From a virus, in IMG/VR virus record IMGVR_UViG_3300031688_000003, positions 55,272 through 119,271 of that record: a DNA stretch of 64,000 nt; one strand, written 5' to 3'. This document shows, piece by piece, positions 3 to 61,540 of the stretch; the first letter of the stretch is position 1, and each line of letters opens with the position of its first letter. Below the pieces are notes generated by a model, which saw only the letters and a list, made by a program, of their open reading frames with translations, searched no databases and was not told the origin of the DNA. A program made the position numbers and the translations under genes.

Positions 3-3000
3 GATGAGCTAGAAGAAACATTAGGAGATACGTCTTGGGTGGACATAATGTCAAAAATGTCTGAGGAAGAGTTTAACAATTTTGTTGCACCTTATAGTAA
101 AAGAACAGATAGTTTAAACAATCTTAAAAGGTTTACAGGTGATGAGAGATGGTGGGCTGGTAATCTTGCTAATGTTATTTCTGATGAAGAATATGCAAAG
201 GCAAATGAAAATCGTAAATGGACAAGAGACAACCATAGAAAAGGGAACCTTCCTAATTATAGTGAAGTGGCACCACTTGGAAAATCTACAGAAGATGTAT
301 TTTATGATGCTGAAAAAGCTTACTATAATACACCAGTACACACTAAAGAAGAACTTAATGCTGACTTTGATACTGCTTATCCTTATACATTTAATTCAGT
401 TGCTGGAACGGATCCTTTAAATAAGATACCATGGAAGAATGAGATGAAGGATGATCCAGAAAAGTGGGAGGGTTCGTGGTCTGATTATATAAGAAGTACA
501 GATATACAACCTGACTATTATGAAATAGGGGACATAACCCTTGCTGAAGAAAGTAATCCATTTCATTTTGTATATGACGGTGGAGATCAAGATGGAGAGA
601 CAGTTAATACAGCAGTTCCAGATAAAGGGATAAAAGATATACAAGATGTACGTAGTCATGATGAATATATGAAATGGTATGATCATCATAAAAAGAGCGG
701 TGTTCTTAATAATAAATCTAAAAAAGATATGGATTATTGGGAAGCTTTAACTGATAAAGATAATAATGTATGGACATCTAACTTTAAATATACAGATGCA
801 TCACCAAGATATAAGGAACTAGATTTCCTTGAAAACCCTAATATGAATATATCAGATGGGGAAAGAGGGAGATTATCTGATAGATCTGAACAGTCGTTAT
901 CAAGATTTGAAACATTAACGGGTAGAGATAGAAAGATGTATAATGATAACCATTTAAATGAAATGGAATATTTTAATTCAATTGGTATATTTGAAACTCC
1001 TTTAGATAAACCTATTGCCTACTATCCTAAAGAAGAAAGGATGGAGTTAATGAAAGTATTAAATGATTATGAAAAGAAACAAAATTCTGAAAATACAGCT
1101 TGGACAATAGATTATAAAAATTCTGAGTTTTATGGTAAAGAAAGAACATATAAGTATGGTGGTTCACTTCCAAAAGCTCAATTAAAGCAAGTTAAGAATG
1201 CATATGCTTTAACTAAGAGTTTAATTAAAGGTAAGCAGTTAGGTAAGGTTTTAAATAAATCATTAAAACTTAATGAATTTATTCCTAAAGCATCAAAGGC
1301 TCCAATCATACCAAAAAATAAAATAGCTTATGTAACTCCTATAAATACAGATGTAAACATAAACATAGGTAATGATATAATATCTAATAACAAAACTGTA
1401 AATGCTGATAATAAATTTAGTTTACAATCAGATGTCTTTAAGAACAAAATACCATTAACAAGAGTATTAAGTTCTAAAGGTTTAAGATTTACGGATGGTA
1501 AATTATTTAGTTCAACAGAACCACATACACATTATAAATCAGACAGCAGAGGTGAGGAATTTCCTCTTCGTTTAAAATCAACAAATAGAAATACCACACA
1601 TTGGTCTTATGGTCATATAGGTAATCCTGGACATGGGGGTGGAAGTTGGTCAAAGAAGTCTACAGCTATCATTAATGATTATGAAAATTTGTCAAAATCT
1701 GGACTTGCCCTAGATCTTGATCCAACTGATACATGGTTCTATTCTAAAGGTAATTTTGAAATACCTGCTAATTCATTAATCTTGACTAGAGATAAGACGT
1801 TATATAAGAAAATAAAAAAAGAAACAAATATTACAAATATAAAACTATTTGAAAATACTAATAATGAAGATTTTGAAAGTATTGTAAACTCATATTCTAC
1901 AAGAGGAGGAAAAGGAGCATATACTAGACCAACGGATGATATGATAAATCCTAAAGATCAGTTTTTTAATGCAGGAGAAGGTGAAATGATAATGAGAGAC
2001 TATATGATAAAAAACTATAGTAAAGGAGATGATGTATCTTTAACACAGACTGCGGATCACTATAAACCTCATCAGTGGCAAGGACATGATTTTGATTGGG
2101 TACACCCCTTTACTGGTAAAAAATCAGGTATTACAACAATGCATCCAGATTTTGATCATTCTTATATGGATCTTGGAGATCCTTTTGGAGGAGGTCAGAG
2201 TAAGGCACACTCTGGTTCTCCATTATCTACTATAGAAAGAATGGAATATAATTGGGGAGATAATATGACAACTAATCATGGATTATACAGTAGTAACAAC
2301 AGATGGGGCAATGGTGATAGATCAGGAAGCTTAGATATATTAGCAAAATTACCAAAAACCATACAAGTAAATGAAATGGAGAAGGTAATGAAAACCTATA
2401 AAAATCAACGTGAAGGTCTTAGACTTCAACAAGAACTAGCAGAATTAAACGGGTTTAAATCATATAAAGAATTCAAGAACTCAATATCAAAACAAGAATG
2501 GTTAGATTTTAAGAGAGATGGTGGCTCACTAAACAAAGCACAATGGTGGAATCCTAAGAATGCATATGCTTTAGCTAATACTATATCTAAATCATTTAAA
2601 CCAGCTAAATCACTTCTTCCTAAACCTAGTTTTAAAAATATAAACTACCAAAAATTATTACCTTTTACTGAATCAGGTTCTACTCTTGTTCCTCAAACCC
2701 ATATGAGTAGTGGGAAGGAAGGAACTAGTATGGATCTATCAGAGACATTAAATTCTATTTATGCTGATAACAAACCTATGTGGTTTGGTCCTACTGCAAC
2801 AAGTAATAGATATAGAATGACAGATGATAATAATAAATTTATTCCAACAATTCCTGGACAAGGTGGACTTTTTCAAGTAGGTTCTGGAAGACTTGGTAAT
2901 ACAGGTAAACCAGGTTTTGATGAAATACCATTTACAGAAGCAACAATGCCATTTGGTGGTCTGGCAAATGATGGTTACCACCTTAATCTAGAAACTGGAT

Positions 3001-6000
3001 TGCCTAATTACAATGATCCACTAATGGATCACAAACTTTTAACAAAAAATGCTTTTCAAAATAAGATTGATGGTGTTTTTAATCCTAATACTAAGTTTAA
3101 AATATTTAAGAGTGACCTCTCCAAAGGTAATCATGCAATGCACCAGAAATGGTCAGACAAAGAACTTGCTAAAATTAAAGCAGATGGGTATGATGCTATT
3201 CAACTTGTAGATCAAAATGGTAATCAGATAGAAAATATATTACTTAATAAAGAAAAGTTTAAGATAAATAAGATCAATGATATGGATGTACACATTGACA
3301 ATCCTGAATTCAAATATGGTGGATCACTACCTAAGGCTCAATGGTACAATCTAAAGAATGCATATAATATCGGTAAGGGTTTAGTAAATACAATAAAGAG
3401 TCCTTTTATTAATGATTTAGTGCAAGGTAGTAATAAACTCTATAGGGGTATAGGACCAGCTGGATATAATAGTGCAGTAAATACTGGTAAGATACTATCA
3501 AATGTAAACCCAACTGCAGTAAATGAAGGTGCTTTTAATTTAACAAAGAACTTTGGAAATAAAACTTTTTTCACTCCTAATGTTGAAACAGCAAGTAAAT
3601 ATGGTGATGGTTATATAGCTGAAATAAATAATGATGTTAATGATTTTAGTAATAGATATAATTCAGACTGGAGTCAGTTTACAACTGACCCTGTTTTCTT
3701 AAGTCAATCTAACATATATAAAATGAATATGTTAGGAAATTATAAAAGAATACTTTCTCAAAATACAGTAGGAGATCATAGTAAAATAAACTTTTTAGAT
3801 AATGTTAAACTTAGGACAAATTATACATCTAGTACAGGTTTAGATTATTATGGTCATAGAAATGTTAAACATAATATAAAAGGAGGATGGCCTACACAGT
3901 TAGAGGTTGAAAAACTAAAAAAAGATTCAGGTTTAACACTAACACAAGATAACTTAAGAAGTTATGTAGAAAAGATTGGTAAAGTTGGCGGTGGTAAATA
4001 TCCTAAAACAACTTTATATAGATATGGTGATATGGCTACAAATGCAGCTGGTAATAAAGACATGGGTTACTATTCAGCAGATCCACTTGATCCACTTAGA
4101 TACAGTGAAAGAGCAGATAGAACTTTTAATGGAAGTGTTTTTAAAATTGATGTTGAAAATGAATTACTACCAGAATTTTATAAAGGAATAGGATTTGGTA
4201 ACCAAGGTAAAGAACCAGGATTTCAATCAGGAACATTATTTAAAGAATTTGAAGTTCCAGAAGATTTTTTAGGTAAATTTGGAAATCAACAAACTTTCAA
4301 AACTTTATCTGATTATAAAAAATGGCTTAATACAGTTAAGCAATCTGGAGGATCATTAACTAAACATCAAGTTCCTAAATTAATTAAAGGTGCATTAGAC
4401 TTAGGTAAGAAGGTGAAGAATATTATTTCTCCTAAAAATGTTAACTCAATTATAGATTGGAGTAAAGTCAGTCCTGCAATATTAGCTAATAAAAACTTAT
4501 TAAGTGAATATGCTGATATAGAAATGGCAACTAAAGCAAATGCAACATGGATGAAGAATGATGATGGTACTTCTTTCTGGGGTACACCTCAACAGTTTAT
4601 TCAAGTAAATAGTGAGGCCTTTAAAAACTCTTATCCAGAAGGTTATAAAAGAGTATTCAGAGGTGAGTCAGGTACTTTGAAATTAACAGATCCTCTTTAT
4701 TCAGGAGCTGCAGATATAGAATCAGGTAATAAAGGTATATTTACAGCAAATGAAGGTTTAGCTAAACTATATACAAACGATTATAGATTAGGGTCAAATA
4801 GTAGTATTCTTCAATTAGCAATACCTAGTGTTAGTGATGGTAGCAAATACTTAAATATAAACGGTCTAGGTAATGATTGGACAGATCTTAGTTCTATAGG
4901 TACTACAAAAAAGACTCTTGAACTAAATATAAAGAATTTAGAAAATAACATAAAGAAGGATGCAGAAGGATTTCAATGGGCATCTGGCAGTGGTAGTTTA
5001 GAAAGTTATGATGTAAATAAACACTTACAAAGTTATAAAGATTTTTACAATAACTATGATGAGATAGTTGCTAATCCTATCTATAAGAAATTACTTGAGT
5101 TTAAAGAAGCTGCTTGGGAAAATGACAAAATTCTTAATGGGGGAAATTTAGCAGGACGACAAAGTTTTGGAACTGGAGATGTAGGTGACTTTATGGAAAA
5201 ATCAGGTTTAAATAATATAAGATTAAACTATATAGATGATGGTGGTTTTGGAGATGTAACACTTAACAACCAGATACCAGGTAACTATCTAAAATCTCTA
5301 ACAAATAACAATGGTAGATTTAATCTAAAAAACCCCAACATGAATAGACAAAAAGGAGGATCACTACCAAAAGCTCAATTGCAATATTATGATAAAGCTA
5401 AAAAAACATATGATTTTGTTAAAGGATTATGGACTGTTGCTAAGCCTGTTTCAAAACTTGTAATACCAGGAAGGTCAGCTACTGATGTGGCTCATAAAAT
5501 AAAACCATTAATTAATAGTTACCAAAAACCAAATTCTGCTGGTGTTGCAAGTTTGATAAATCCTAACTGGACTGTTGATGAAGGTGGATTATATGAAGGT
5601 ATGGATAGTAGAGTTAGAACATTTATAGAACCAGGCCAGTATGGAATAAATGAACCTATAAGACTAATGGATGGTAATACTAGATTTCATTATGGACAGA
5701 GTCAAGGAAAAGATTGGGACGAATGGTATAGAACATTTCAGCATAATAACCAATCTTTATATCCAGAGATAGCTGAAAAAAATCTTACTCTTGAAAATGG
5801 AACATGGAGACCTAAAACACAGCTTGAACTTGATGATGATATACCAACAGAAGTTTGGGATCCTGTACAACAGAAATTTGTTAAACAAAATTTGAAAACA
5901 AGACCCTTTGCTGATCCCACATCCCTATATAGAGCTGTTAATGCTCCTGATATTCAAACTGCTGAAAAGTTTGGAACTACAATTCCTTCACTCAATTCTG

Positions 6001-7217
6001 GTGCAGATGGGAGAAGGACAGGATATACCGACTTACAAAAAAACACTCCATATGATGTTTTATTTACAACACCCAATGCAGGTTGGATAGGTGGTTCAGG
6101 TGTTGATGATCCATATAATTTATTTAATTTATATGCAAAAAAAGATCAAGGAAAATTTATAGTTAAAATGCCAAGAACAAATGGTGCTGTTGAGAGTTTA
6201 ACTCAAATTAATAATAGGACAGATATTTTAAACAATTCTCAATATCCGTACAGTGGAAACACTGGTTCAGTTTGGAATGAAGCAACTGGTAAATTTGATA
6301 TACCTACACATCTTGGTTCAGGTATATTCAATACAGTCTCTGGTAAGCCTGATTTAAGTTTAATACCAGAAGGATCAATTGTTAATCCAAATTATTCAAG
6401 TTTTAATGGTAACCAGATAACTCCAATATTTGGAACAAAAGGAACAACAGTTAGAAACGCACAAGATGTATTACCAATAGAAGACTATTTCAAAAAACTA
6501 AAAGAAGATCCTAATTGGAAATTTAATAAAGGAGGATCTGTAAAAGCTCAATATGTAGGTGAAACTAAAGAAGATATAGATTGGACAGGTACAACTCAAG
6601 GTGAGATACCAAGCAATGAACCAGACTTAGATCTTTTAAAGCAAGGTGTTGGTTATGCTGAAAGTCTTAATGGTGAGTTGATGATTAATTCTCAATCTAC
6701 TGCAACAGGATTATATGGTCAAAGATTTTCTGAAGTAAAGAAAGGTAAATTATATGATGGAACAAGAGAAGAATTTGCTGTAGATCTTGATGCTCAAAAC
6801 TCTTTATTTGAACAAAGATACAATGGAGAAATAAAAGATATACCAGGATTAAAACAAAGTGGTATAGATCTATATGAAGAGTATAACACACAAATAACAG
6901 ACTTTCCATACTCAACAACTGAAGTTGCTGCACTGGTAAACTTCATAGGTAGACAAGGTACAAGAGACTACCTAGGATACGTTCTAAGAGACGGTAATAC
7001 ATTAGAATCAGTATTCCCTACTAAGTATGGATCAAAAGCAAATCAGTCAAATAAGACTCCAAATGAATATATCACTAAATTTAATGAAGGTTTAAATATA
7101 AAAAAGAAAGGAGGTGAAGTAGATAAGCTTACTGAAAGATTGATAAAGAAATATGAAGAAGGAGGAACACTTACACCTGCAGGAACTAAACATTTAAAGT
7201 CTCTAGGGATGATATAA
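3..7217 (+). CDS. Giant modular virion protein (5'-truncated): several ADP-ribosyltransferase-like modules and a C-terminal lysozyme/transglycosylase-like module separated by KxGGSLPKAQ motifs
   Basis: Frame is open from nt 3, so the true start lies upstream (the track start at 39 is a GTG). Six GG-linker copies; LYRG/LYRY/FRGE/LYRA...(F/Y)(F/Y)(T/S) ART-type strands; WMKNDDG...QFIQVNSEAFK and LKSLTNNNGRFNLKNP resemble polyvalent-protein ART modules; AESLNG...STATGLYGQ resembles a lysozyme-fold catalytic segment. Confidence 0.75.
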   Translation, partial: DELEETLGDTSWVDIMSKMSEEEFNNFVAPYSKRTDSLNNLKRFTGDERWWAGNLANVISDEEYAKANENRKWTRDNHRKGNLPNYSEVAPLGKSTEDVFYDAEKAYYNTPVHTKEELNADFDTAYPYTFNSVAGTDPLNKIPWKNEMKDDPEKWEGSWSDYIRSTDIQPDYYEIGDITLAEESNPFHFVYDGGDQDGETVNTAVPDKGIKDIQDVRSHDEYMKWYDHHKKSGVLNNKSKKDMDYWEALTDKDNNVWTSNFKYTDASPRYKELDFLENPNMNISDGERGRLSDRSEQSLSRFETLTGRDRKMYNDNHLNEMEYFNSIGIFETPLDKPIAYYPKEERMELMKVLNDYEKKQNSENTAWTIDYKNSEFYGKERTYKYGGSLPKAQLKQVKNAYALTKSLIKGKQLGKVLNKSLKLNEFIPKASKAPIIPKNKIAYVTPINTDVNINIGNDIISNNKTVNADNKFSLQSDVFKNKIPLTRVLSSKGLRFTDGKLFSSTEPHTHYKSDSRGEEFPLRLKSTNRNTTHWSYGHIGNPGHGGGSWSKKSTAIINDYENLSKSGLALDLDPTDTWFYSKGNFEIPANSLILTRDKTLYKKIKKETNITNIKLFENTNNEDFESIVNSYSTRGGKGAYTRPTDDMINPKDQFFNAGEGEMIMRDYMIKNYSKGDDVSLTQTADHYKPHQWQGHDFDWVHPFTGKKSGITTMHPDFDHSYMDLGDPFGGGQSKAHSGSPLSTIERMEYNWGDNMTTNHGLYSSNNRWGNGDRSGSLDILAKLPKTIQVNEMEKVMKTYKNQREGLRLQQELAELNGFKSYKEFKNSISKQEWLDFKRDGGSLNKAQWWNPKNAYALANTISKSFKPAKSLLPKPSFKNINYQKLLPFTESGSTLVPQTHMSSGKEGTSMDLSETLNSIYADNKPMWFGPTATSNRYRMTDDNNKFIPTIPGQGGLFQVGSGRLGNTGKPGFDEIPFTEATMPFGGLANDGYHLNLETGLPNYNDPLMDHKLLTKNAFQNKIDGVFNPNTKFKIFKSDLSKGNHAMHQKWSDKELAKIKADGYDAIQLVDQNGNQIENILLNKEKFKINKINDMDVHIDNPEFKYGGSLPKAQWYNLKNAYNIGKGLVNTIKSPFINDLVQGSNKLYRGIGPAGYNSAVNTGKILSNVNPTAVNEGAFNLTKNFGNKTFFTPNVETASKYGDGYIAEINNDVNDFSNRYNSDWSQFTTDPVFLSQSNIYKMNMLGNYKRILSQNTVGDHSKINFLDNVKLRTNYTSSTGLDYYGHRNVKHNIKGGWPTQLEVEKLKKDSGLTLTQDNLRSYVEKIGKVGGGKYPKTTLYRYGDMATNAAGNKDMGYYSADPLDPLRYSERADRTFNGSVFKIDVENELLPEFYKGIGFGNQGKEPGFQSGTLFKEFEVPEDFLGKFGNQQTFKTLSDYKKWLNTVKQSGGSLTKHQVPKLIKGALDLGKKVKNIISPKNVNSIIDWSKVSPAILANKNLLSEYADIEMATKANATWMKNDDGTSFWGTPQQFIQVNSEAFKNSYPEGYKRVFRGESGTLKLTDPLYSGAADIESGNKGIFTANEGLAKLYTNDYRLGSNSSILQLAIPSVSDGSKYLNINGLGNDWTDLSSIGTTKKTLELNIKNLENNIKKDAEGFQWASGSGSLESYDVNKHLQSYKDFYNNYDEIVANPIYKKLLEFKEAAWENDKILNGGNLAGRQSFGTGDVGDFMEKSGLNNIRLNYIDDGGFGDVTLNNQIPGNYLKSLTNNNGRFNLKNPNMNRQKGGSLPKAQLQYYDKAKKTYDFVKGLWTVAKPVSKLVIPGRSATDVAHKIKPLINSYQKPNSAGVASLINPNWTVDEGGLYEGMDSRVRTFIEPGQYGINEPIRLMDGNTRFHYGQSQGKDWDEWYRTFQHNNQSLYPEIAEKNLTLENGTWRPKTQLELDDDIPTEVWDPVQQKFVKQNLKTRPFADPTSLYRAVNAPDIQTAEKFGTTIPSLNSGADGRRTGYTDLQKNTPYDVLFTTPNAGWIGGSGVDDPYNLFNLYAKKDQGKFIVKMPRTNGAVESLTQINNRTDILNNSQYPYSGNTGSVWNEATGKFDIPTHLGSGIFNTVSGKPDLSLIPEGSIVNPNYSSFNGNQITPIFGTKGTTVRNAQDVLPIEDYFKKLKEDPNWKFNKGGSVKAQYVGETKEDIDWTGTTQGEIPSNEPDLDLLKQGVGYAESLNGELMINSQSTATGLYGQRFSEVKKGKLYDGTREEFAVDLDAQNSLFEQRYNGEIKDIPGLKQSGIDLYEEYNTQITDFPYSTTEVAALVNFIGRQGTRDYLGYVLRDGNTLESVFPTKYGSKANQSNKTPNEYITKFNEGLNIKKKGGEVDKLTERLIKKYEEGGTLTPAGTKHLKSLGMI

Positions 7218-7248
7218 GAATGGATATAATTAGACAATGTCCTAATAA

Positions 7249-7262
7249 TTTAGTATATTATA
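7249..7262 (+). promoter_or_regulatory. Putative late promoter motif TTTAGTATATTATA
   Basis: Intergenic; the identical 14-mer recurs at 44724-44737. Confidence 0.45.
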
Positions 7263-7296
7263 AGTGTATAGTGCTAAATATTAATTAATTGAGCAA

Positions 7297-10200
7297 ATGG
7301 CAAAAGAATTTCCAGATAATAAAACTTTAGAAGTTTACCAGCAAGGTGGTGCTACTCAGAGTGTTAACTCATGTCCAGAAGCTATATCTGATGACATGAT
7401 AAATATAGATAATAGAGAACGTTCTATTGTAAGATCTAACTATAGTAAATCAAATACAGAAAGCAAATGTGGAAATTGTATCTTTTTTGACATATCTAAT
7501 AGGATAAAAAAGTGTGCAGATACTAAGTCAGATAATAAAGGATACTGCTGGGATCAAGAGTTTGTATGTGAATCTCAAAATATTTGTGATATGTGGGAAG
7601 AAGGTGGTCCAATCAAGTCTAACAAAGACTCATATGCACAAGATGAATCCTCTAATGAGTTTGAACAAAATAAAGCAGAAGTTGAACAGATACAAACTCA
7701 GAAACAGATGCCTGTGTTTAATGAGTCTCAACAACAACCAATGGCTCCGCAACAAGGTGCACCACCTCAAGCAATGCCTCCTCAACAACAAGCTCCTGCA
7801 CCACAAGAACAAATGCAACCTTCATTTGCATATGGTGGATCTTTAAGGAAGGCTCAAGAGCAACATGAAACAAATCCTATAAATCCTGTAACAGGATTAC
7901 CTTTTGAAGATGATATGTTGGCAGCAAAGAAAGAAAGAGATTTACAAGCTGCAAAAGAAAGAGAAGCAATATTAGCTCAACAAGGTCAAGATAATAATAC
8001 AGATATATATGATGAAGCAAATCCTAAAGAAGCAGGTTCATCACTTAAAGATAAATATAAAAACTGGAGAACTAAAAGAGCAATAAAAAAATATCAAAAG
8101 AGTTTAATCCCAGAAGCTCCATTTATGATGTATAACTCTGATCCTTCACAAGGTGTTCTAGGAGAGATAGGTAATTGGATGAAAAGTGCGAAGAAAGACT
8201 TTACTACTAATTGGGATAATAATAATAAGAAAAGTAACTATCAACAATTTAAAGTTTCAAATCCACATGATGATGTAAGATTCTTTGATCAAGATAATCC
8301 TGATGCACCACTGCTCAACTATGGCCAGAAGAATTCTAATGATTATAACAAGTTCTCTACTGACAGAACATCAGCATTTCCAGAACTATATCAAATATCA
8401 TCTATGGATAATGAAGGTAACATAAGTTACACAGGAGAGAAGTTGTTAGGGGATATGGTTGAAACAGAATACATGCCTGATGCTGTTCACATTCAACATA
8501 CTGAAGATGGAACAGGAGTTACAGGAGCATACATATATACTGGAATGAGTGATGCTGGAAAAAAAGAATATGAGTTTGTTCCTTTTGATAAAGAAAATCC
8601 TACTCAGATTTCAGTTGGACCATCTAAGCAAAAACGTGCTGAACAAGAAATGGCAGATAAGAATATATGTATAAATGCAGGTGGTGAATGGGATGCTGGA
8701 GTATGTACATATCCTGATGAGACAACTAAGAAAGATAATTTACAAAAGAAGAAAAATGAGAACTTTAAAAAGACACCATTAAATATAGAATTTGATAAAG
8801 ATAAACAATTTGGAGGTACTCCAACATTTGCACATATGAGAGATGGAGGTTCTCTGTCAAAGTTTCAAAGTCAAAGTGAATGGACAGATGAACAACTAAA
8901 AACATATCTAAAGTTGCAAAATGAAATGCTTGTTACTGGTGGTGTTGATGGATCTAAAATTGATCTATCTAAAAAAGATACTTGGCCTAGTGTTAAATTT
9001 TCAGTTTCAGATGGTACATATAATACAATGTATCCTTGGTTACCAGATATGTCTACTAAAGAAGGTAAGTCACAAATGTATAATTTACATAAAACTGCAT
9101 CAGATAAATTTCCTGATCAAACATACATGCCTGGTGTATATTGGGGATCAGATGATGAAGGTGGTGCATATCCATATCTAAATGAAACTGTTGAGGGTAA
9201 AGAAGAAAGAGCACGTCATACTGCATCATTGCAACGTGACTTTGCAACATTACAAGAAGCATTAGCATTTGCTAAAAAAGGTGGATATAATACTGAAGGC
9301 TTAAGTGTAAATGGTGTACCTATACAAAACGTTAGTAATATAGGTAGTTCTGCCGATGACATAGACTATGGTGCAGAAGGGAACTTTAATAGAAGAAGGT
9401 TGGGTATTAATAGAAGTGTAGGAACAGATGATTTAACAGGTACAGTTTATGATGCAGCATATAAACCATATCAAGAAAAATTACAAAAGGAATATGATAA
9501 CCATTATGCTACTAAGTCTGGTGTAGATAATTGGTCTATGGAAAAATTTATGAATGAGTATGATCATAGTGGATACAAGCAAGACTGGCAAGAAGTTACT
9601 GCAGATAACATGGAGGATGCTATAAATTATTCAGGTAATCAAGCCTTTGAAGGTTCCATGGGAGGTTATGGTGGAGGTGCAATAGGATATAATTCTGGTA
9701 ATAGTGAATACATTATAGGAAATGATACATTACCTAATCCTCAATTTCAAGATCATGGAAGGAATAAAGAAATGACTACTGATATGGGTTATATACCAGG
9801 ATTGGTTGGAGGAATGGGTGGATTAAAACTAGGAATGAACTTAGCAAAATATGTAGGAGGTTTCAGTGTTCCTTATACACAAGGAGCACTTACTTTTGGT
9901 AATGTAGCTAATGGAATGATGGCAACTAATGGTGTAGTTAACACTCTACCAACTGCAGTTAATAATTTTAAAGAAGGTGACTGGGAGGAAGGGTTGATGA
10001 ATACAGCTTTTGGACTTGGTGAAATGACAGGGTTTGGAAATATGGGTACTAATATTTTACCAAAAACATTTAATCAAGTCAGAGGTCTTAACTCAACAAT
10101 GCCTGCTTTAAATATTAAAGGTCAATCTAAAATTATGGAAAGTTTAAACGCAAATAAGAATTTGAGAACATTCAATGCAAATCCTCTTAGTAAAAGACCT

Positions 10201-12261
10201 TCACAGCTAGGTATACTTAAGGATTATATGAAAACTAATTATACTAATAAGTTGATTAATCCTAACTTTGCCCCAAAAGTATTTCCAACTAACTATACTC
10301 AATTTCCAGGAGTTCCAGGGTTAAAATATGGAGGCTCTTTACCTAAAGCACAAATACAAAATGGTGCACATGATGTAGCAGCTAATTATCAAGTAAATCC
10401 TGCACAGTTTGATTATGATACAAATATGCCTAAGGAAGGAGCAATTAGTGCATATGGAGATGTATGGCAAGGAGGACAATGGGTAGATGCTACTGTAGAA
10501 GAACAAGGTTTTAATACTCCTAATTCAGAACAGTTTGGAAATGTAAAAACTGCATTCTCAGATGAGACAGGTGTTACAAACCGTAATGCAAATTATGATC
10601 CAGATAGAGCATATCCTTTTTCAGCAAATGCAATAAACAAAGATATAAAATCTGCAGCAGCTAATAGCTTTGATGTAAGAAGAAAAGACATAGATATGAA
10701 TACTTATAAACCTGAAGATGGTTCTATAAATAAATCATATGGTGATATATATAATTCTGAGAGTGGAAACTTTGATGATAATCAATTTACACCAATGTTT
10801 GATCAAACAGATGATTTTGCATTTGAAGGAGATAATAATACATTAAGTAGAAGACAACTTAGAGATGTACGTCAAGATAATAGAAGACAAGCTAGAGCTG
10901 AAGATAAAGGCTTTGGATCTTATGAAGATATGCAAACTGATAAGAGTGAAAGAAAAGCAGAGAAAAGACAAAGGAGAAAAGATAAAAGAGATAGATGGGG
11001 TGAAACACCAGGGGCAAGGATGACTAATAAAGTGAATTATGCATTAGATAGTAATCTAGGTCAACTATTTCAAAAAGGATCTAAAGCTGCAGTAGAAGGA
11101 GCAAAAATTATAAATAATCAGTTTGATGGTTATAATGAAGATATGGAATCAGAAAAAGTTTTTGCTGGTAGATCAGCAGGATCTATGTATGGAGTAACAA
11201 GTTCTGATGCATTATCAAGAGGTGAACATGATAAAAACACTGGTATTTTCCAACCAGATGATAAAGTAATTTCAAGATGGGGTAAGTATGGTACTGAACT
11301 ACCTAGAGCACAAGGTCAAATGGAAACTGCTAGTATATATGATATACCAAATAAGGATGGTTCTTATAATGATCAAAATTGGTTTACAAAAGCTAATCAT
11401 GGATTTAGTGAGGGGGTGTATAATGATGCACAAAGAACAAATCATGGGGTGGCACCAATTGTAGGTGGTGGTATAATAGGTAAGATGGCAGACGTAAAAA
11501 GCATATATGATTTTGGTAAGAGTGCATATGATGGTGTAAGTAATTGGATAAATGAAGAAGAGGTAGATGAAATTGCTGGAACACCTGAAGGATATGCTAT
11601 GGATATGGCTAAGTATGGAGGTCACCTGAAAGCACAAAATCAAAAGGAAACTGGACTAAAAGAATTTTGTGTTAATGGACCAATAATTGATTCAGGAGGT
11701 AGAGTTTTTTCTCAATGTCAAAATAGAGATTTTGATTCTAAGCATGACTTAAGTTTATATGGAACAATGTCAATGGGTAAATTAAATGATGAATTTACAT
11801 CATCATTTGGATTAGCTCCAGGATATACTTTCAATCCTAGTGGAGGAACAAATGGTCTTAAAACATACGTTGGTGGAAACTATGGTTTACGTGCTACTGA
11901 AGATTCTAGTGTAGATGATGGATTGAATGGAACTACTGTGGATATGGATAATTATATGAAACTCTTGGCTTCAGTAGGATATACTGGAGAAGTAGGTGGT
12001 AACAATACTCAATATGGGTTTGGTGCTTATGCTGATAAAGATCTAATGGGTGATAATGGTACTACTTATGGTGGCTATGCTAATGTTGGACCTGTTACTT
12101 TTAAGGGAGGAATCAATCCAAACACAGGTCCACAATTTTCTTTAGGTATAGGGGCACATCTTAAACAAAGAGGTGGTGAACAAAAACAAAAAACAGTAAG
12201 TGTAAATTCAGATATGTATTACGAATTAATAGCTGCAGGAGCAGATATAGAAATTATATAA
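7297..12261 (+). CDS. Giant modular virion protein (1654 aa) with GG-linker motifs, N-terminal six-Cys module and C-terminal beta-barrel-like module
   Basis: Long ORF with an A-rich start context; motifs AYGGSLRKAQ, RDGGSLSKFQ, KYGGSLPKAQ, KYGTELPRAQ, KYGGHLKAQ; CGNC...C...GYC...C...CDMWEEGGP at the N-terminus. Confidence 0.7.
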   Translation: MAKEFPDNKTLEVYQQGGATQSVNSCPEAISDDMINIDNRERSIVRSNYSKSNTESKCGNCIFFDISNRIKKCADTKSDNKGYCWDQEFVCESQNICDMWEEGGPIKSNKDSYAQDESSNEFEQNKAEVEQIQTQKQMPVFNESQQQPMAPQQGAPPQAMPPQQQAPAPQEQMQPSFAYGGSLRKAQEQHETNPINPVTGLPFEDDMLAAKKERDLQAAKEREAILAQQGQDNNTDIYDEANPKEAGSSLKDKYKNWRTKRAIKKYQKSLIPEAPFMMYNSDPSQGVLGEIGNWMKSAKKDFTTNWDNNNKKSNYQQFKVSNPHDDVRFFDQDNPDAPLLNYGQKNSNDYNKFSTDRTSAFPELYQISSMDNEGNISYTGEKLLGDMVETEYMPDAVHIQHTEDGTGVTGAYIYTGMSDAGKKEYEFVPFDKENPTQISVGPSKQKRAEQEMADKNICINAGGEWDAGVCTYPDETTKKDNLQKKKNENFKKTPLNIEFDKDKQFGGTPTFAHMRDGGSLSKFQSQSEWTDEQLKTYLKLQNEMLVTGGVDGSKIDLSKKDTWPSVKFSVSDGTYNTMYPWLPDMSTKEGKSQMYNLHKTASDKFPDQTYMPGVYWGSDDEGGAYPYLNETVEGKEERARHTASLQRDFATLQEALAFAKKGGYNTEGLSVNGVPIQNVSNIGSSADDIDYGAEGNFNRRRLGINRSVGTDDLTGTVYDAAYKPYQEKLQKEYDNHYATKSGVDNWSMEKFMNEYDHSGYKQDWQEVTADNMEDAINYSGNQAFEGSMGGYGGGAIGYNSGNSEYIIGNDTLPNPQFQDHGRNKEMTTDMGYIPGLVGGMGGLKLGMNLAKYVGGFSVPYTQGALTFGNVANGMMATNGVVNTLPTAVNNFKEGDWEEGLMNTAFGLGEMTGFGNMGTNILPKTFNQVRGLNSTMPALNIKGQSKIMESLNANKNLRTFNANPLSKRPSQLGILKDYMKTNYTNKLINPNFAPKVFPTNYTQFPGVPGLKYGGSLPKAQIQNGAHDVAANYQVNPAQFDYDTNMPKEGAISAYGDVWQGGQWVDATVEEQGFNTPNSEQFGNVKTAFSDETGVTNRNANYDPDRAYPFSANAINKDIKSAAANSFDVRRKDIDMNTYKPEDGSINKSYGDIYNSESGNFDDNQFTPMFDQTDDFAFEGDNNTLSRRQLRDVRQDNRRQARAEDKGFGSYEDMQTDKSERKAEKRQRRKDKRDRWGETPGARMTNKVNYALDSNLGQLFQKGSKAAVEGAKIINNQFDGYNEDMESEKVFAGRSAGSMYGVTSSDALSRGEHDKNTGIFQPDDKVISRWGKYGTELPRAQGQMETASIYDIPNKDGSYNDQNWFTKANHGFSEGVYNDAQRTNHGVAPIVGGGIIGKMADVKSIYDFGKSAYDGVSNWINEEEVDEIAGTPEGYAMDMAKYGGHLKAQNQKETGLKEFCVNGPIIDSGGRVFSQCQNRDFDSKHDLSLYGTMSMGKLNDEFTSSFGLAPGYTFNPSGGTNGLKTYVGGNYGLRATEDSSVDDGLNGTTVDMDNYMKLLASVGYTGEVGGNNTQYGFGAYADKDLMGDNGTTYGGYANVGPVTFKGGINPNTGPQFSLGIGAHLKQRGGEQKQKTVSVNSDMYYELIAAGADIEII

Positions 12262-12263
12262 TT

Positions 12264-15200
12264 ATGAAAGTCAAAATAAATAAATTACCTGAAGGGTATA
12301 AAGTTAAAAATGGACAGATTGTAAAAGTCATGTCTATGGGTGGTGTTCCTTATAGTAATACTATAGGGCCTATTCCTGAACAGTTTGCTAATCTAGAAGC
12401 TGAAAAAGGTGAGACTGCACTTACTGATTTAACTAATGATGGAAACTATGAGCTATATAATATAGGTGGTAGAAGACATCAAGATGGTGGAACAAACTTA
12501 AGTTTACCACCTCAATCTTTTATCTTTTCTGATACAGCAAAGATGAAACTTAATAAGGCACAGCTACAAGACTTTGGTATCAACTCTACAAAGAAGATGT
12601 CACCTGCTGCAGTATCAAAGAAATTTCCATTAAATAGATATTACTCTATTCTTAATGATGAGTTTGTAGATGATATAGCAACAAGAAGTTCTGAACTAAT
12701 GTTAGATAAAAACAAAATGCAACTTTCACATTTAGCATTTGTATCAGAAAGTAAAAAGAAATTTGAAGACGGTGTACCATTAGCAGCATACCCATACTTA
12801 ATGTCTAAGGATATTGATCCACAAGAATTTGTTCAGAAAGTAAATAAGCTAAATGAGGAACAAGCTCAAATGCAAATGATTGATCAATTACCACCAGAAC
12901 AACAACAAGAGTTCTTAGCATTACAAGATTTTACAGGAGGACAAGGAGGTCCCCCACAGGGAGGACCACAAGGAGGAATGCCCCCAATGGGACCACCACA
13001 AGGAGGAGGTATGCCACCACAAGGTATGATGCCACCTCAACAAATGATGGCTAAATATGGTGGTGGTTTACCTAACTATCAAGAACTTGGAGCTTATGAT
13101 CAGCAACTAGTATGTTCTCAATGTGGTACACCTGAAGGAGAACCTCATAATATGAGACATATGTTTATGCCAATACCTATTGGTGATTATATTAACCAAA
13201 ATCCAAGAGCTACTCCTCCTGGAGCACCCCGAGGTACTATTACAACTGATGTAGCTTCTTATCCTCCTTTTGATGAGAATGGTAATTTTCAGAATGTAAA
13301 TAAATTAAAAAAAGCTGAATTATTAACACAGAAATATGGTGGAGGTTTACATAAGGCACAAATACAAGAAGAAATTCTATCAATACCACCTATACAAACA
13401 CAAACTGTACCAAACTATAGTAAAACATCTGGTCTTGATATTTCTATACCTGGGAACTTTATGAAAGATCAACACTACACAGGTAGTGAAGCTATGAAGA
13501 ACTGGCAAATAGAAAATGGATATGCATCTCAGTTTGATACATTTAATGTACCTGAAGGAAACGTGTTTTTTCAACAAGGTGGACCACCTGCAGCTCAACA
13601 ACCACAAGGAGGACAAGGTGGTGGAGGAGAGATTGAACAAATAATGCAAATGGTTGGACAAGCTATGGAACAAGGTGCTCAACCTGAAGAAGTTATAGCA
13701 GAATTATTACAGAATCAAATTCCACCAGAAGTAGTAATGCAAATTTTTGGTCAATTAGGAATGCCACCACAGCAAGTAGAACAAATGATAATGGCTGTTA
13801 TGCAACAAGTACAAGGAGGTCAGCAACAAATGGCTGCACCCCAAGGACCACCTCCAGGCCCACCACAGGGTGGAATGCCACCAGAAATGATGGCTGCTAT
13901 GCAACAAGGTCAAGGTCAAGGTCAACCACAAATGAAGTATGGTGGTTTATTTAAAAATCAATCTGAATCTCCTGAAGGTCCATCAATGCACTTACCTTCT
14001 CAAAGGTTAGAAGAAGTAGAAGATATATTCCCTTTTAATGCAGCAGATTTTGCTAGTGAGTATCCACAAATTAGCTATGGTAGAGATATTAATGAAGGAA
14101 TCAATCAAGGATCTTTAGTAGGAATAGCAGAAAGAGCTTTATCTGCTCAAAATGCTACTCCAGATCCTATGTATGATGGAAGATATAAAGATGACCCACA
14201 AGCAGATTATGCACAATCAGGTGGTGCATTAAATAGATTTGTATATGGAGGTGAAGAATATATAGATAGATACACTGACTATGACAATACACCTATGGGG
14301 TTACCTAAAGCACAAGTTGGTAGTGGAACCAAGTATGGTAATGATAACTATAATAATATGATGAATCTATATCAATCAGATGATTGGGATATGGTTAATG
14401 AATATGGTTATCAAACATATGAAAAAATGTATAGTTCAGGTAATTATGATATGGGATCTATGATGTCACAAGAAGAGTATGAAACACAATTTCTTGCTGA
14501 TCAGAAATTTAAATACCTAATGAATGATCCAGGAGCATTATCCGAGATGGAAATTACATTACCTAATGGTACAGTAGTTAAAGGTGATAAACTTTTAGGT
14601 CATAAAGCTTGGGATAATCCTAATTCACATGGTTTTACTATACCTAATGGAATGTATAAAGCAGTATATGAGGAGTTTTCTAAATTGAATCCAAATTTTG
14701 AGTTACCAGCTTTACCTGAAGATATAAGAGCAGATGTAAGACAAAAACAATCTGTGTTCAATAGTCTAGGTGGTTTATCTAAACATGCTGAGAAAATGTC
14801 TGCAGATGGAGATGATAGCTGGTCTAATTTAATTTCCAATGTTAATCTAGAAGCATTTGGTAATGATGATGATGGTGGGTTAGGTGAAGATAGATGGTCT
14901 AAAATTGATGGTAGATATGGTGATACATATAATAGACAGTTAGTTACTATGAATAATGAACCAGGAGAAGAATCAACAAGAGATGTATCTACATGCTTTA
15001 ATGATAAAGAAGGGAATCCAATTCAAGCTAAAGTAGCTGAACAACAGGCGTGTACAGAAAGAGGCGGTAATTATGATGTACAAGTTTGTAGATGTATAGA
15101 AAAAACAGAAATTATAACTAAACCTCCAGAAACACCTGAGTTCTGGAAACAAGATATAATGAAGTTAGATGCATTATCAGGCATAGATATAAATAAATAC

Positions 15201-15989
15201 TATCCAAGTAGACAAAGTTTTACTGGTAACTTTATGGATCCAGCATATAAAGATCCAACTAGAGAGATTGCAGCTATTGGTGAACAAGCACAGATTGCAG
15301 GAGATATGGCAGCATCAATGTCAAGTGGTCCTGGTTTATCATCTATTCTTGCTAAGATTCAAGGAACAGCTGGTGCACAAATTGCTGGTGCTCTTGATAA
15401 AGTTCAAAATGATAACATTAGTATTTACAACGGTGCAGAACAATTTAATGCTGGTGTACAGACTAATACAGATGTGCTTAACCAAGATGCTGGTAAAACT
15501 TTTATGGATGCAGTTAACTTAGTAGATCAAAACTATGATAATGCAAGAAATGAATTAGATGTTCAGATAGCTGATATGCAAGCTAATGCTTGGACTAACA
15601 TGGCTAATACAGCTAATCTAAATAGTTTGACACCTGATTTAAAAGTTAGCCCAGCAAATGCAGGATTAATTAATGCTAATACTAGTAAGGCTTTAAATGC
15701 TAATGTTCCAGTAGATGCTCAATCTAGTATGGATAAAAGATTAGCATTAGAGAAACAATACTATGATGCAAATTGTGGTAATATAAGTGATGATAAAGAA
15801 AAGGCTGCATGTAAGTTGGCAGCATCAAAAGCTGCTGATAAAACTATGAAGGCTTCTAATACAACAACACCACCTGCTACAGTAGTACCACCAGGTTATC
15901 AAGGTGAAGCTGGTAATACACTTAAAGAAACCAAATATGGTAGCGAATTGAGAAGAGAGTTGATGATGAGAAGAGGAGGACAATGGTAG
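12264..15989 (+). CDS. Modular virion/cargo protein (1241 aa) with GG-linker motifs and Q/M/P/G-rich disordered tracts
   Basis: Long ORF starting 2 nt after the previous stop; KYGGGLPNYQ, KYGGGLHKAQ, KYGGLFKNQ, MGLPKAQ motifs; N-terminal EAEKGE...GGRRHQDGG...SFIFSD segment of a kind I recall from Bacteroidota phage internal proteins. Confidence 0.7.
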   Translation: MKVKINKLPEGYKVKNGQIVKVMSMGGVPYSNTIGPIPEQFANLEAEKGETALTDLTNDGNYELYNIGGRRHQDGGTNLSLPPQSFIFSDTAKMKLNKAQLQDFGINSTKKMSPAAVSKKFPLNRYYSILNDEFVDDIATRSSELMLDKNKMQLSHLAFVSESKKKFEDGVPLAAYPYLMSKDIDPQEFVQKVNKLNEEQAQMQMIDQLPPEQQQEFLALQDFTGGQGGPPQGGPQGGMPPMGPPQGGGMPPQGMMPPQQMMAKYGGGLPNYQELGAYDQQLVCSQCGTPEGEPHNMRHMFMPIPIGDYINQNPRATPPGAPRGTITTDVASYPPFDENGNFQNVNKLKKAELLTQKYGGGLHKAQIQEEILSIPPIQTQTVPNYSKTSGLDISIPGNFMKDQHYTGSEAMKNWQIENGYASQFDTFNVPEGNVFFQQGGPPAAQQPQGGQGGGGEIEQIMQMVGQAMEQGAQPEEVIAELLQNQIPPEVVMQIFGQLGMPPQQVEQMIMAVMQQVQGGQQQMAAPQGPPPGPPQGGMPPEMMAAMQQGQGQGQPQMKYGGLFKNQSESPEGPSMHLPSQRLEEVEDIFPFNAADFASEYPQISYGRDINEGINQGSLVGIAERALSAQNATPDPMYDGRYKDDPQADYAQSGGALNRFVYGGEEYIDRYTDYDNTPMGLPKAQVGSGTKYGNDNYNNMMNLYQSDDWDMVNEYGYQTYEKMYSSGNYDMGSMMSQEEYETQFLADQKFKYLMNDPGALSEMEITLPNGTVVKGDKLLGHKAWDNPNSHGFTIPNGMYKAVYEEFSKLNPNFELPALPEDIRADVRQKQSVFNSLGGLSKHAEKMSADGDDSWSNLISNVNLEAFGNDDDGGLGEDRWSKIDGRYGDTYNRQLVTMNNEPGEESTRDVSTCFNDKEGNPIQAKVAEQQACTERGGNYDVQVCRCIEKTEIITKPPETPEFWKQDIMKLDALSGIDINKYYPSRQSFTGNFMDPAYKDPTREIAAIGEQAQIAGDMAASMSSGPGLSSILAKIQGTAGAQIAGALDKVQNDNISIYNGAEQFNAGVQTNTDVLNQDAGKTFMDAVNLVDQNYDNARNELDVQIADMQANAWTNMANTANLNSLTPDLKVSPANAGLINANTSKALNANVPVDAQSSMDKRLALEKQYYDANCGNISDDKEKAACKLAASKAADKTMKASNTTTPPATVVPPGYQGEAGNTLKETKYGSELRRELMMRRGGQW

Positions 15990-61521: not shown

Positions 61522-61540
61522 TTTCTTTTTTTTTATTTTA

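What the first reader, a model, noticed from the sequence alone, without database searches (positions are those of the whole stretch)
3..15989. Three giant virion proteins punctuated by a conserved di-glycine motif: candidate phage polyprotein-processing system
Seen: about 15 copies of [KR]-x-G-G-[SG]-L-x-K-A-Q (KYGGSLPKAQ exactly three times, at 1152, 3312 and 10324) fall between otherwise unrelated modules of roughly 90-500 aa. The DNA copies differ at synonymous positions, so selection acts on the peptide. The full motif is absent from the three downstream giant proteins. Known: viral polyproteins are matured at Gly-Gly sites (ASFV pS273R cleaves GG-X; adenovirus protease cleaves (M/I/L)xGG-X), and phage prohead proteases process internal proteins such as T4 Alt. 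Inference: these ORFs are polyproteins packaged into the head and cut at xGG|SLPKAQ, releasing many small proteins that share one N-terminus. The motif could instead be a repeated capsid-packaging signal. I know of no characterised system like this in crAss-like phages.
Basis: partly seen in the sequence, partly recalled or inferred. Interest (0 to 1): 0.92.

Follow-up and report, generated by a model that had tools for sequence, protein, structure and literature searches.

The report
Junction tag in phage cargo proteins
Three giant proteins that this uncultured marine crAss-like phage probably packs into its particle and injects are strings of swappable enzyme modules joined by one short, strongly conserved peptide (K-Y-G-G-S-L-P-K-A-Q-x-G). 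The peptide is real and I found no description of it, but whether it is cut by a protease or serves uncut as a docking handle is still open.

Summary
ORFs A (3-7217), B (7297-12261) and C (12264-15989) carry 9 strict and about 7 degenerate copies of [KR]-x-G-G-[SG]-L-x-K-A-Q. Residue shuffles give none, and no strict or relaxed-pattern copy occurs in D, E, F or any other frame.

The window belongs to a 119-kb crAss-like phage with no cultured close relative. A, B and C lie between the muzzle-like gene and the virion-RNA-polymerase giants, where crAss001 has its cargo proteins.

Relatives with 76-94% identical capsid proteins share only the ends of A. The middle modules are shuffled, and homology breakpoints cluster at the motif (37 of 108 against 7.9 expected). 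One module folds like a DarT/Tpt1 ADP-ribosyltransferase. Homologues carry LysM, YkuD, SLT, amidase and SET domains.

The motif occurs in-frame in 65 viral-contig loci but only once in 596 Gb of prokaryotic genomes. In ten related genomes it is confined to these cargo genes.

Cleavage at GG|S is neither shown nor excluded. Against it:
- The LPKAQ core often lacks GG.
- Copy number ranges from 1 to 14.
- No GG-specific protease was found.
- In crAss001 gp45, similar [FY]-G-G sites flank segments that dock on the portal and tail.

I favour an uncut docking or hinge tag (0.4) over a cleavage site (0.3). The scan found the same phenomenon in at least 8 other genomes.

The parts
3..7217 (+). ORF A (5'-open in the window; 2629 aa in the whole genome): cargo-position giant with conserved N- and C-terminal modules and a hypervariable array of middle modules
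7297..12261 (+). ORF B (1654 aa): cargo-position giant with 5 motif copies
12264..15989 (+). ORF C (1241 aa): cargo-position protein with a conserved N-terminal domain (aa 1-200), then motif copies and P/Q/G/M-rich linkers
1149..1187 (+). motif copy YKYGGSLPKAQLK (A, aa 611 of full-length A)
2511..2549 (+). motif copy KRDGGSLNKAQWW (A 1065)
3309..3347 (+). motif copy FKYGGSLPKAQWY (A 1331)
4338..4376 (+). motif copy KQSGGSLTKHQVP (A 1674)
5346..5384 (+). motif copy RQKGGSLPKAQLQ (A 2010)
6522..6557 (+). degenerate copy FNKGGSVKAQYV (A 2402), at the junction to the conserved C-terminal module
7825..7863 (+). motif copy FAYGGSLRKAQEQ (B 180), at the end of a P/Q-rich linker (nt 7681-7851)
8836..8874 (+). 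motif copy MRDGGSLSKFQSQ (B 517)
10321..10359 (+). motif copy LKYGGSLPKAQIQ (B 1012)
11281..11319 (+). variant without the second Gly: GKYGTELPRAQGQ (B 1332)
11608..11643 (+). degenerate copy AKYGGHLKAQNQ (B 1441)
13050..13088 (+). motif copy AKYGGGLPNYQEL (C 266), at the end of a P/Q/G/M-rich linker (nt 12867-13109)
13329..13367 (+). motif copy QKYGGGLHKAQIQ (C 359)
13932..13967 (+). degenerate copy MKYGGLFKNQSE (C 560), at the end of a P/Q/G/M-rich linker (nt 13716-13991)
14211..14321 (+). split degenerate copy: AQSGGALNRFVYG (C 653) followed 26 aa later by TPMGLPKAQVG (core without GG)
1437..1889 (+). confident core of module A611-1065 with an ADP-ribosyltransferase-like (DarT/Tpt1) fold
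   Evidence: AF2 pLDDT 60-94. VIA-align top four hits are Tpt1 and three DarT chains, Z 5.1-5.7. Weak but consistent.
6540..7214 (+). conserved C-terminal module of A (aa 2405-2629), shared by nearly all homologues
12211..12258 (+). conserved C-terminal tail of B (..YELIAAGADIEII-COOH), preceded by [KR]-x-G-G; present in B-like proteins of all lineages examined, including cyanophage Lbo-JY46
25660..26502 (+). candidate partner only: HExxH...EE (gluzincin-like) segment inside the 5127-aa giant E, conserved in 20 orthologues
   Evidence: AF2 and fold search are weak (best Z 5.5, a putative metal-dependent hydrolase; anthrax LF/PPEP Z 3.2-3.5).

Best explanation
Shown: A, B and C are the cargo-position proteins of a crAss-like phage. 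Each is a string of exchangeable modules, including enzyme-like ones. The peptide [KYF]-[KRQ]-[YD]-G-G-S-L-P-K-A-Q-x-[GQ] marks the joints between modules. It lies in coil or low-complexity sequence. It is confined to these genes across lineages whose capsid proteins are only about 22-28% identical.

Inferred (the mechanism I commit to, 0.4): the peptide is an exposed short linear motif that stays uncut in the virion. A conserved phage partner reads it. Candidates are the portal, the tail-barrel rings or an assembly factor. It acts as a docking handle and hinge that lets a beads-on-a-string cargo protein be loaded, held along the portal-tail axis and threaded out module by module. crAss001 C1 (gp45) is laid out in this way.

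Because any module flanked by the tag remains loadable, the tag also makes module swapping safe. That would explain the hypervariable 'effector magazine'. The architectural part I hold at about 0.9.
For: - Motif statistics.
- Gene order TerL-portal-MCP-...-Z-A-B-C-D-E-F, with an ADFDID RNA-polymerase-like motif in E.
- Homologues share only the terminal modules of A and shuffled middles, with HSP ends at motif positions. In numbers, 37 of 108 unique internal endpoints lie within -8..+16 of a motif, against a null of 7.9 (maximum 20 in 5000 trials).
- The motif is in-frame in long ORFs in 70 of 73 viral-contig matches, against a single match (with a slightly longer pattern) in 596 Gb of prokaryotic genomes.
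- In ten genomes the LP.[AFYH]Q core occurs 11.1 times per 10 kaa in cargo genes and 0.16 elsewhere.
- Eight consecutive near-invariant residues with unconserved flanks are typical of a peptide ligand.
- AF2 places both tested copies in coil, pLDDT 26-31.
- P/Q/G/M-rich linkers end at three copies.
- LPKAQ occurs at the N-terminus of the C-like proteins of G005 and of cyanophage Lbo-JY46, without GG.
- In crAss001 gp45, [FY]GG sites at 209, 427 and 562 bracket the cryo-EM segments 214-245 (tail barrel) and 425-552 (portal). The paper reports no cleavage.
Against: - No binding partner is identified, and no complex prediction could be run.
- D, E and F, which must also be packaged, lack the tag, so it is not a general packaging signal.
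- Copy number varies from 1 to about 14 among close relatives, and 57 of 120 C-like homologues have none. The tag is therefore dispensable at many joints.
- A, B and C do not match the crAss cargo Pfam families, so the crAss001 analogy is positional and motif-level only.
- The AF2 model is poor overall (mean pLDDT 49.5), so 'coil' is weak evidence.
Confidence: 0.4

Rival explanations
1. Polyprotein processing. The tag is a protease site, cut at GG|S or elsewhere in the tag, for example before the invariant Leu or after Gln. Cutting happens in the prohead or after ejection and releases independent effectors. The protease might be the zincin-like segment inside the co-packaged giant E, or the DUF2201-type metallopeptidase.
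For: - Junction placement.
- The modules have different likely targets: peptidoglycan enzymes and LysM in homologues, ART-like and SET modules. The polyvalent-protein paper predicts processing by an MPTase domain (PMC5512222).
- HExxH...EE is invariant in nearly all E orthologues.
- Pfam DUF2201_N 'putative metallopeptidase', E 6.8e-20, at window 61541-62707(-).
- GG at P2-P1 is a classical viral and bacterial protease site (established knowledge).
- Some proteins end 2 residues after [KR][KR]xGG.
Against: - No GG-specific protease family was detected.
- The zincin assignment is weak (Z 5.5), and G009 keeps the tag although its E orthologue reads HEAFE.
- GG is missing in 20 of 43 core copies.
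- Eight to eleven invariant residues is more than most cleavage sites need.
- Copy number is not conserved among relatives.
- crAss001 gp45 is modelled through one AFGG-W site.
Confidence: 0.3
2. The tag is read after ejection by a host or envelope factor, in the way the linear TolB and TonB boxes of colicins are. It would help pull, sort or refold the modules in the periplasm or cytoplasm.
For: - It is an exposed linear motif flanked by glycines.
- Peptidoglycan-acting modules in homologues imply passage through the periplasm.
- Conservation of the peptide exceeds that of any phage structural protein compared.
Against: - An LPKAQ header also occurs in a cyanophage (Lbo-JY46, host Leptolyngbya), whereas the host of this clade appears to be Bacteroidota. 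A host-specific factor is therefore unlikely.
- No known host-box consensus matches.
Confidence: 0.1
3. The tag is a passive linker or recombination scar. It is merely a tolerated joint inherited with cassettes, or a microhomology that promotes cassette exchange, and has no reader of its own.
For: - Breakpoints of homology sit at the tag.
- One module of A is found in a different gene elsewhere in relative G001.
- There is a slight excess of DNA identity among copies.
Against: - Synonymous sites are nearly randomised while eight residues are near-invariant across lineages with 22-28% identical capsid proteins.
- A neutral linker would drift.
- 24 nt at about 80% identity is poor substrate for homologous recombination.
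Confidence: 0.1

Closest known systems
Cargo protein C1 (gp45) of Bacteroides phage crAss001 (Bayfield et al. 2023, PMC10172136; Pfam PF25725)
   Same: - It occupies the same gene position, between the muzzle gene and the virion RNA-polymerase genes.
- It is a packaged, ejected protein laid out as separate segments along the tail barrel and portal.
- Its repeated [FY]-G-G sites at 209, 263, 332, 391, 427 and 562 bracket the ordered segments.
   Different: - There is no detectable sequence or Pfam homology.
- gp45 has a Gly-rich transmembrane segment; A, B and C have none.
- gp45 lacks the SLPKAQ half of the tag and any arrays of enzyme modules.
- It is 842 aa, against 1241-2629 aa here.
Polyvalent proteins of phages and conjugative elements (Iyer, Burroughs, Anand, de Souza, Aravind 2017, PMC5512222)
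   Same: - Many unrelated effector domains sit in one polypeptide encoded next to virion genes.
- There is extensive domain shuffling.
- Domains include ART-PolyVal, lysozyme/SLT and peptidoglycan-acting domains.
- Processing by a zincin-like MPTase is predicted.
   Different: - That paper describes no conserved junction peptide ('linker' and 'glycine' each occur 0 times).
- No MPTase is detectable inside A, B or C themselves.
Demarcation motifs of polymorphic toxins (CdiA VENN, Rhs DPxGL) - from my own knowledge, not tested here
   Same: A short invariant peptide marks the border where variable toxin modules are exchanged.
   Different: - Those occur once per protein, before a single C-terminal toxin.
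- Here up to 7 copies separate tandem modules.
- The sequences are unrelated.
Capsid-targeting or cargo-loading peptides (T4 CTS of internal proteins and Alt; encapsulin GSLxxK-type loading peptides) - from my own knowledge
   Same: - They are short conserved peptides that bring cargo into an HK97-fold shell.
- The T4 CTS is also removed by the prohead protease, so docking and cutting are not exclusive.
   Different: - Those are terminal and present in a single copy.
- Here the copies are mostly internal and multiple.
- No binding or cleavage was tested.
Gly-Gly-X viral proteases (adenovirus adenain, ASFV pS273R) and C39 double-glycine leader peptidases - from my own knowledge
   Same: They cut after G-G, and G-G precedes a small residue in most copies here.
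   Different: - No clan CE or C39 domain was found in the parts scanned.
- The conserved part of the tag lies mainly after the GG.
- GG is dispensable in many copies.

Membership tests
Polyvalent proteins (Iyer et al. 2017) | Several unrelated effector or enzymatic domains in one polypeptide of a phage or plasmid | tested here: met
   - The modules are mutually unrelated by BLASTP.
- One module has an ART-like fold (Z 5.1-5.7).
- Homologue P0003 matches ART-PolyVal at 3e-06, 28.5 bits, below the 31.2-bit cut-off.
- LysM, YkuD, SLT, Amidase_2, SET, NlpC/P60 and Peptidase_M91 occur in motif-bearing homologues.
Polyvalent proteins (Iyer et al. 2017) | Encoded among late or virion genes and delivered with the DNA | tested here: inconclusive
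   The gene context is met. Presence in the virion and delivery cannot be tested with these tools.
Polyvalent proteins (Iyer et al. 2017) | Associated zincin-like MPTase predicted to process the protein | tested here: inconclusive
   - There is no peptidase Pfam hit in A-F.
- A conserved HExxH...EE segment lies in the neighbouring giant E, with weak fold support.
- A DUF2201_N metallopeptidase lies elsewhere in the genome.
Crassvirus cargo protein 1 / 2 (Pfam PF25725 crAss_CARG1, PF25712 crAss_CARGO2) | Match to the family HMM | tested here: not met
   - gp45 and gp46 match at 2.3e-66 and 6.4e-219, but B, C and D have no match even at E up to 10, and A had none at E up to 0.01.
- PF25725 found nothing in six-frame searches of G000, G003, G005, G009 and G042.
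- A profile-to-sequence hhalign of the C N-domain against gp45 gave E 0.33.
Crassvirus cargo protein 1 / 2 (Pfam PF25725 crAss_CARG1, PF25712 crAss_CARGO2) | Position between the muzzle gene and the virion RNA-polymerase genes | tested here: met
   - The order is Z (2521 aa, PHROG virion structural protein; weak BLASTP to gp44, E 0.007)-A-B-C-D-E(ADFDID)-F.
- The same order holds in nine relatives and in Lbo-JY46.
Viral polyprotein with dedicated protease | Cognate protease encoded by the virus | tested here: inconclusive
   - No prohead, clan CE, clan CA or C39 protease was found by Pfam or PHROGs in the giants and the structural block.
- Not every small ORF of the genome was scanned.
- There are two zincin-like candidates.
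Viral polyprotein with dedicated protease | Conserved site at every domain boundary | tested here: inconclusive
   Sites lie at boundaries in this genome. However, close relatives have 1-8 copies, and many joints lack the tag.
Viral polyprotein with dedicated protease | Cleavage products in virions or infected cells | not testable with these tools
   There is no isolate and no proteome. The closest cultured crAss-like phage with virion MS, phi14:2, lacks the motif.
Terminal capsid-targeting or cargo-loading peptides (T4 CTS, encapsulin CLP) | Short peptide at a protein terminus that binds the shell or core | tested here: inconclusive
   - Most copies are internal.
- N-terminal LPKAQ headers occur only in G005 and Lbo-JY46 C-like proteins.
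- 117 of 120 C-like homologues have LPxG[FYW] instead.
- Binding is not testable here.

The most novel reading that the evidence does not exclude
A dedicated cargo-polyprotein system in a very abundant marine crAss-like clade. Giant 'effector magazines' are loaded through a universal tag. They are then cut at that tag, by a virion-packaged zincin embedded in the RNA-polymerase giant or by another phage protease. Cutting happens inside the head or on entry and releases a strain-specific cocktail of ADP-ribosyltransferases, cell-wall enzymes and other effectors that all share the same new termini.
Probability: 0.25. Interest if true: 0.85.

Novelty: new variant of a known kind. Interest (0 to 1): 0.62.

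Why it matters
If the tag is read by a conserved partner, whether a docking site or a protease, it is the rule that lets these phages pack and inject an interchangeable set of enzymes. That would explain why genomes with 94% identical capsid proteins carry almost entirely different cargo modules.

It gives a simple sequence handle for finding injected effectors in uncultured crAss-like phages. Candidates include anti-defence and host-takeover enzymes such as DarT-like ADP-ribosyltransferases.

It also turns an open question into a concrete experiment: how are megadalton amounts of cargo protein ordered, held and threaded through a crassvirus tail? The test is to mutate or transplant one 12-residue peptide. 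A portable loading tag would also be useful for engineering phage-delivered proteins in laboratory strains.

Tried and rejected
- **Family searches on the giants.** Pfam and PHROGs on A-D and F gave no families. Pfam on E and F gave nothing relevant. PDB sequence searches of A, of the second half of E and of the C N-domain profile gave nothing.
- **ESM Atlas.** Searches with the A N- and C-terminal modules gave only unnamed viral clusters. There was one weak SLT lead for the C-terminal module.
- **Related loci.** The search for related loci with the A C-terminal module as a single protein found no relatives.
- Contexts of P0002-P0026 could not be fetched, so I used IMG/VR records instead.
- **437-aa ORF between portal and MCP as protease.** It has more than 5900 homologues, none with a Pfam domain, so this was uninformative.
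- **Cultured phages.** phi14:2, with published virion MS, was scanned for the motif and has none. crAss001 has only the [FY]GG half.
- **Bacteroidota 'Q-rule' signal-peptidase cut at A|Q.** Rejected because there is no hydrophobic h-region, Pro sits at -3, and an LPKAQ header occurs in a cyanophage.
- **'Joint = footer of one protein plus header of the next'.** Only weakly supported. Among 120 C-like homologues the header is LPxG[FYW] in 117, and GG lies in the last 8 residues in only 19.
- **Homology of the C N-domain to the gp45 portal-binding domain.** Not significant by hhalign (E 0.33).
- **Self-cleaving G|S autoproteolysis, inteins and ribosomal skipping.** Rejected on sequence grounds, since the flanks are unconserved and no fold surrounds the site. 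This is inference, not a test.


Full report
**1. What the window is.**

The + strand carries six giant ORFs:
- A, 3-7217
- B, 7297-12261
- C, 12264-15989
- D, 16052-19510
- E, 19513-34896 (5127 aa)
- F, 34899-40511

The window is the right-hand part of a single 119,271-bp virus record. Upstream lie TerL, the portal, the MCP, a 2198-aa LRR tail protein and a 2521-aa 'virion structural' protein that I call Z. A follows Z, and in full A is 2629 aa.

The DNA polymerase is closest to that of the crAss-like Cellulophaga phage phi14:2, at 36% identity. E carries an ADFDID motif of the kind that marks crAss-like virion RNA polymerases (the assignment rests on established knowledge).

The order Z-A-B-C-D-E-F parallels muzzle gp44, cargo gp45/gp46 and RNA-polymerase proteins gp47-50 in crAss001.

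No cultured close relative exists in the phage collection. The best MCP hit is the cyanophage Lbo-JY46 at 28% identity. By contrast, a 437-aa structural-block protein has more than 5900 metagenomic homologues, many from Tara samples, so this is an abundant marine clade.

**2.

- KYGGSLPKAQ is at nt 1152, 3312 and 10324.
- There are 9 strict and 12 relaxed matches in A-C, plus four looser ones.
- Residue shuffles give essentially none.
- No strict or relaxed match occurs in other frames or in D, E or F.
- Codons vary at synonymous sites.
- Across 14 identical GGSLPKAQ copies in ten genomes, DNA identity is only slightly above the codon-usage expectation: 19.9 against 18.3 of 24.
- A logo from 53 copies gives [KYF]-[KRQ]-[YD]-G-G-S-L-P-K-A-Q-x-[GQ]. 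Information is confined to these 13 positions.

**3. The tag marks joints of exchangeable modules.**

- The 25 homologues of A share the N-terminal module (1-69 or 1-189) and the C-terminal module (2405/2426-2629). They otherwise share only scattered middle modules in different orders.
- Five complete IMG/VR genomes have MCPs 76-94% identical to this one. They share almost none of the middle of A.
- One A module (611-1065) sits in a different gene elsewhere in G001.
- Unique internal HSP endpoints fall within -8..+16 residues of a tag 37 times out of 108. The null mean is 7.9, with a maximum of 20 in 5000 trials.
- Caveat: the tag's own conservation pulls HSP ends a few residues past it. That cannot create the clustering by itself.
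- Module A611-1065 has only 16 representatives among 1.84 billion proteins.

**4. What the modules are.**

- AF2 of A 585-1095 is poor overall (mean pLDDT 49.5). It has a confident core (pLDDT 60-94) whose four best PDB matches are Tpt1 and three DarT chains (Z 5.1-5.7). CopC and CteC ADP-ribosyltransferases rank lower. The match is weak but consistent.
- Homologue P0003 has a sub-threshold ART-PolyVal hit in the part that aligns to A 1331-1674.
- Among 32 motif-bearing ORFs from viral contigs, Pfam finds LysM, SLT, YkuD, Amidase_2, lysozyme, NlpC/P60, SET and Peptidase_M91.
- This is the 'polyvalent protein' make-up described by Iyer et al. 2017. They predict processing by zincin-like MPTases but describe no junction peptide.

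**5. Distribution.**

- A degenerate DNA pattern for GGSLPKAQ hits 65 IMG/VR loci. Of 73 matches, 70 are in-frame in long ORFs, with the same [KR]-[KY]..x-G context.
- A slightly longer pattern hits once in 596 Gb of prokaryotic genomes, on a Bacteroidetes MAG contig.
- Of 50 motif-bearing records, 36 contain an MCP match. Most are 76-95% identical. Three (G009, G033, G047) are only about 25% identical.
- A PSSM scan of ten genomes finds the tag almost only in the positional orthologues of A, B and C. One exception is an extra gene in G001, and there are isolated weak matches elsewhere. Counts per genome run from 1 to about 14.
- phi14:2 has none.
- crAss001 gp45 has only the first half of the tag, [FY]-G-G-x-L.

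**6. Is it an exposed linker?**

- In AF2 both tested copies are coil with pLDDT 26-31. Much of that model is equally poor, so this is weak evidence.
- In B and C, three copies end long P/Q/G/M-rich low-complexity stretches.
- On average the flanks have normal hydrophobicity, so the modules abut the tag closely.
- Nothing suggests a buried element of a repeated fold.

**7. Cut or uncut?**

For cutting:
- The tag sits at the joints.
- The module functions are heterogeneous.
- G-G is a classical protease site.
- A conserved YHEAFHxVFR...YEEYLAD (HExxH+E) segment lies in E. Structural support is weak: best hit a putative metal-dependent hydrolase at Z 5.5, with anthrax LF and PPEP zincins at Z 3.2-3.5.
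- A DUF2201_N 'putative metallopeptidase'-VWA protein lies next to an AAA ATPase.

Against cutting:
- No GG-type or prohead protease was found where I looked.
- G009 keeps perfect tags although its E orthologue reads HEAFE.
- The LP.[AFYH]Q core is about 70-fold enriched in cargo genes. It is preceded by GG-x in only 23 of 43 cases; other cases read KYG[ST]E-LPKAQ or have no glycine.
- The C-like proteins of G005 and of cyanophage Lbo-JY46 start M-K-[VI]-R-[VI]-x-(G)-L-P-K-A-Q-x-G.
- Copy number is not conserved.
- Eight consecutive near-invariant residues look more like a ligand than a scissile site.

The crAss001 precedent:
- Cryo-EM shows gp45 residues 214-245 on the tail-barrel rings and 425-552 on the portal wing. 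It is interpreted as one stretched chain, with no report of cleavage.
- The [FY]GG sites at 209, 427 and 562 bracket exactly these segments. The modelled segment 425-552 starts A-F-G-G-W.
- That is a positional and motif-level analogy only. A-D do not match the crAss cargo Pfam families.

**8. Verdict.**

The architecture is well supported: a junction tag in hypervariable cargo proteins. The mechanism is inferred. I rate the options as follows:
- an uncut docking or hinge handle read by a conserved virion partner, 0.4
- a protease site, 0.3
- a post-ejection host-factor box, 0.1
- a passive linker or recombination scar, 0.1

His alternative, a packaging signal, is at least as good.

I found no description of the peptide in the searchable literature. 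The scan itself has met the same phenomenon in at least eight other crAss-like genomes, with follow-ups reaching the same open question.

**9. Limits.**

- The AF2 models are of low confidence.
- Not all small ORFs were scanned for proteases.

Noticed in passing
window 25660-26502 (+), inside ORF E: A conserved HExxH...EE (gluzincin-like) segment, YHEAFHxVFR...YEEYLADxFE, in the 5127-aa virion-RNA-polymerase giant. It is invariant in 20 orthologues except G009 (HEAFE). The fold match is only weak (Z 5.5, a putative metal-dependent hydrolase). G005 giants carry further HExxH sites.
   Followed up: partly
window 31522-31536 (+), ORF E aa 4004: An ADFDID motif resembling the catalytic DxDxD loop of crAss-like virion RNA polymerases. 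A PDB sequence search of the second half of E nevertheless found no match to phi14:2 gp66.
   Followed up: no
window 60268-62707 (-): A gene pair in the replication module: an AAA (MoxR-like) ATPase plus a 388-aa DUF2201_N putative metallopeptidase / DUF2201 VWA-like protein. PHROGs labels the latter 'HNH endonuclease', which looks like a misnomer.
   Followed up: partly
window 12211-12258 (+), end of ORF B; also L141:17334-19358(-): B-like proteins of all lineages, including cyanophage Lbo-JY46, end in a conserved tail, [KR]-x-G-G...(D)xxxxxLIxAGADIEI[IL]-COOH. It may be a second, terminal handle. P0025 has internal copies fused to an LPEAQ core (GGYIIEELPEAQEGG).
   Followed up: partly
window 12264-13073 (+), N-terminal domain of ORF C: A conserved domain with invariant ..LEAE.GE..GG[KR]RH..GG..FIFSDT and an N-terminal strand-like header M-K-V-K-I-N-K-L-P-x-G-[FYW] (117 of 120 homologues). 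It has no Pfam or PDB match. A local resemblance to the portal-binding domain of crAss001 gp45 is not significant (hhalign E 0.33).
   Followed up: partly
L141 (Leptolyngbya phage Lbo-JY46, PP438436.1 62000-111999): This cultured cyanophage, unclassified below Caudoviricetes in its record, has a crAss-like structural and cargo block. Its MCP is 28% identical over 99% of the length, and it has A-, B- and C-like positional orthologues with the same terminal peptides.
   Followed up: partly
G001 (IMG/VR record behind L050) 110077-115446 (-): A 1789-aa motif-bearing gene outside the cargo block carries modules homologous to A 611-1065 and B 1436-1631. So a cargo-type cassette protein sits at a second genomic site in a relative with an 83% identical MCP.
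   Followed up: no
G051 (IMG/VR record behind L066, 245,646 bp): The record holds two different MCP copies (82% and 80% identical to the query) and two E-like giants. It is probably two related phage genomes joined in one assembly.
   Followed up: no
all 14 GGSLPKAQ copies in ten genomes (e.g. window 1158-1181): Ser in the tag is always encoded by TCN (11 of 14 TCA), never AGY. Lys is mostly AAA and Gln mostly CAA. This is a small nucleotide-level bias beyond codon usage.
   Followed up: partly
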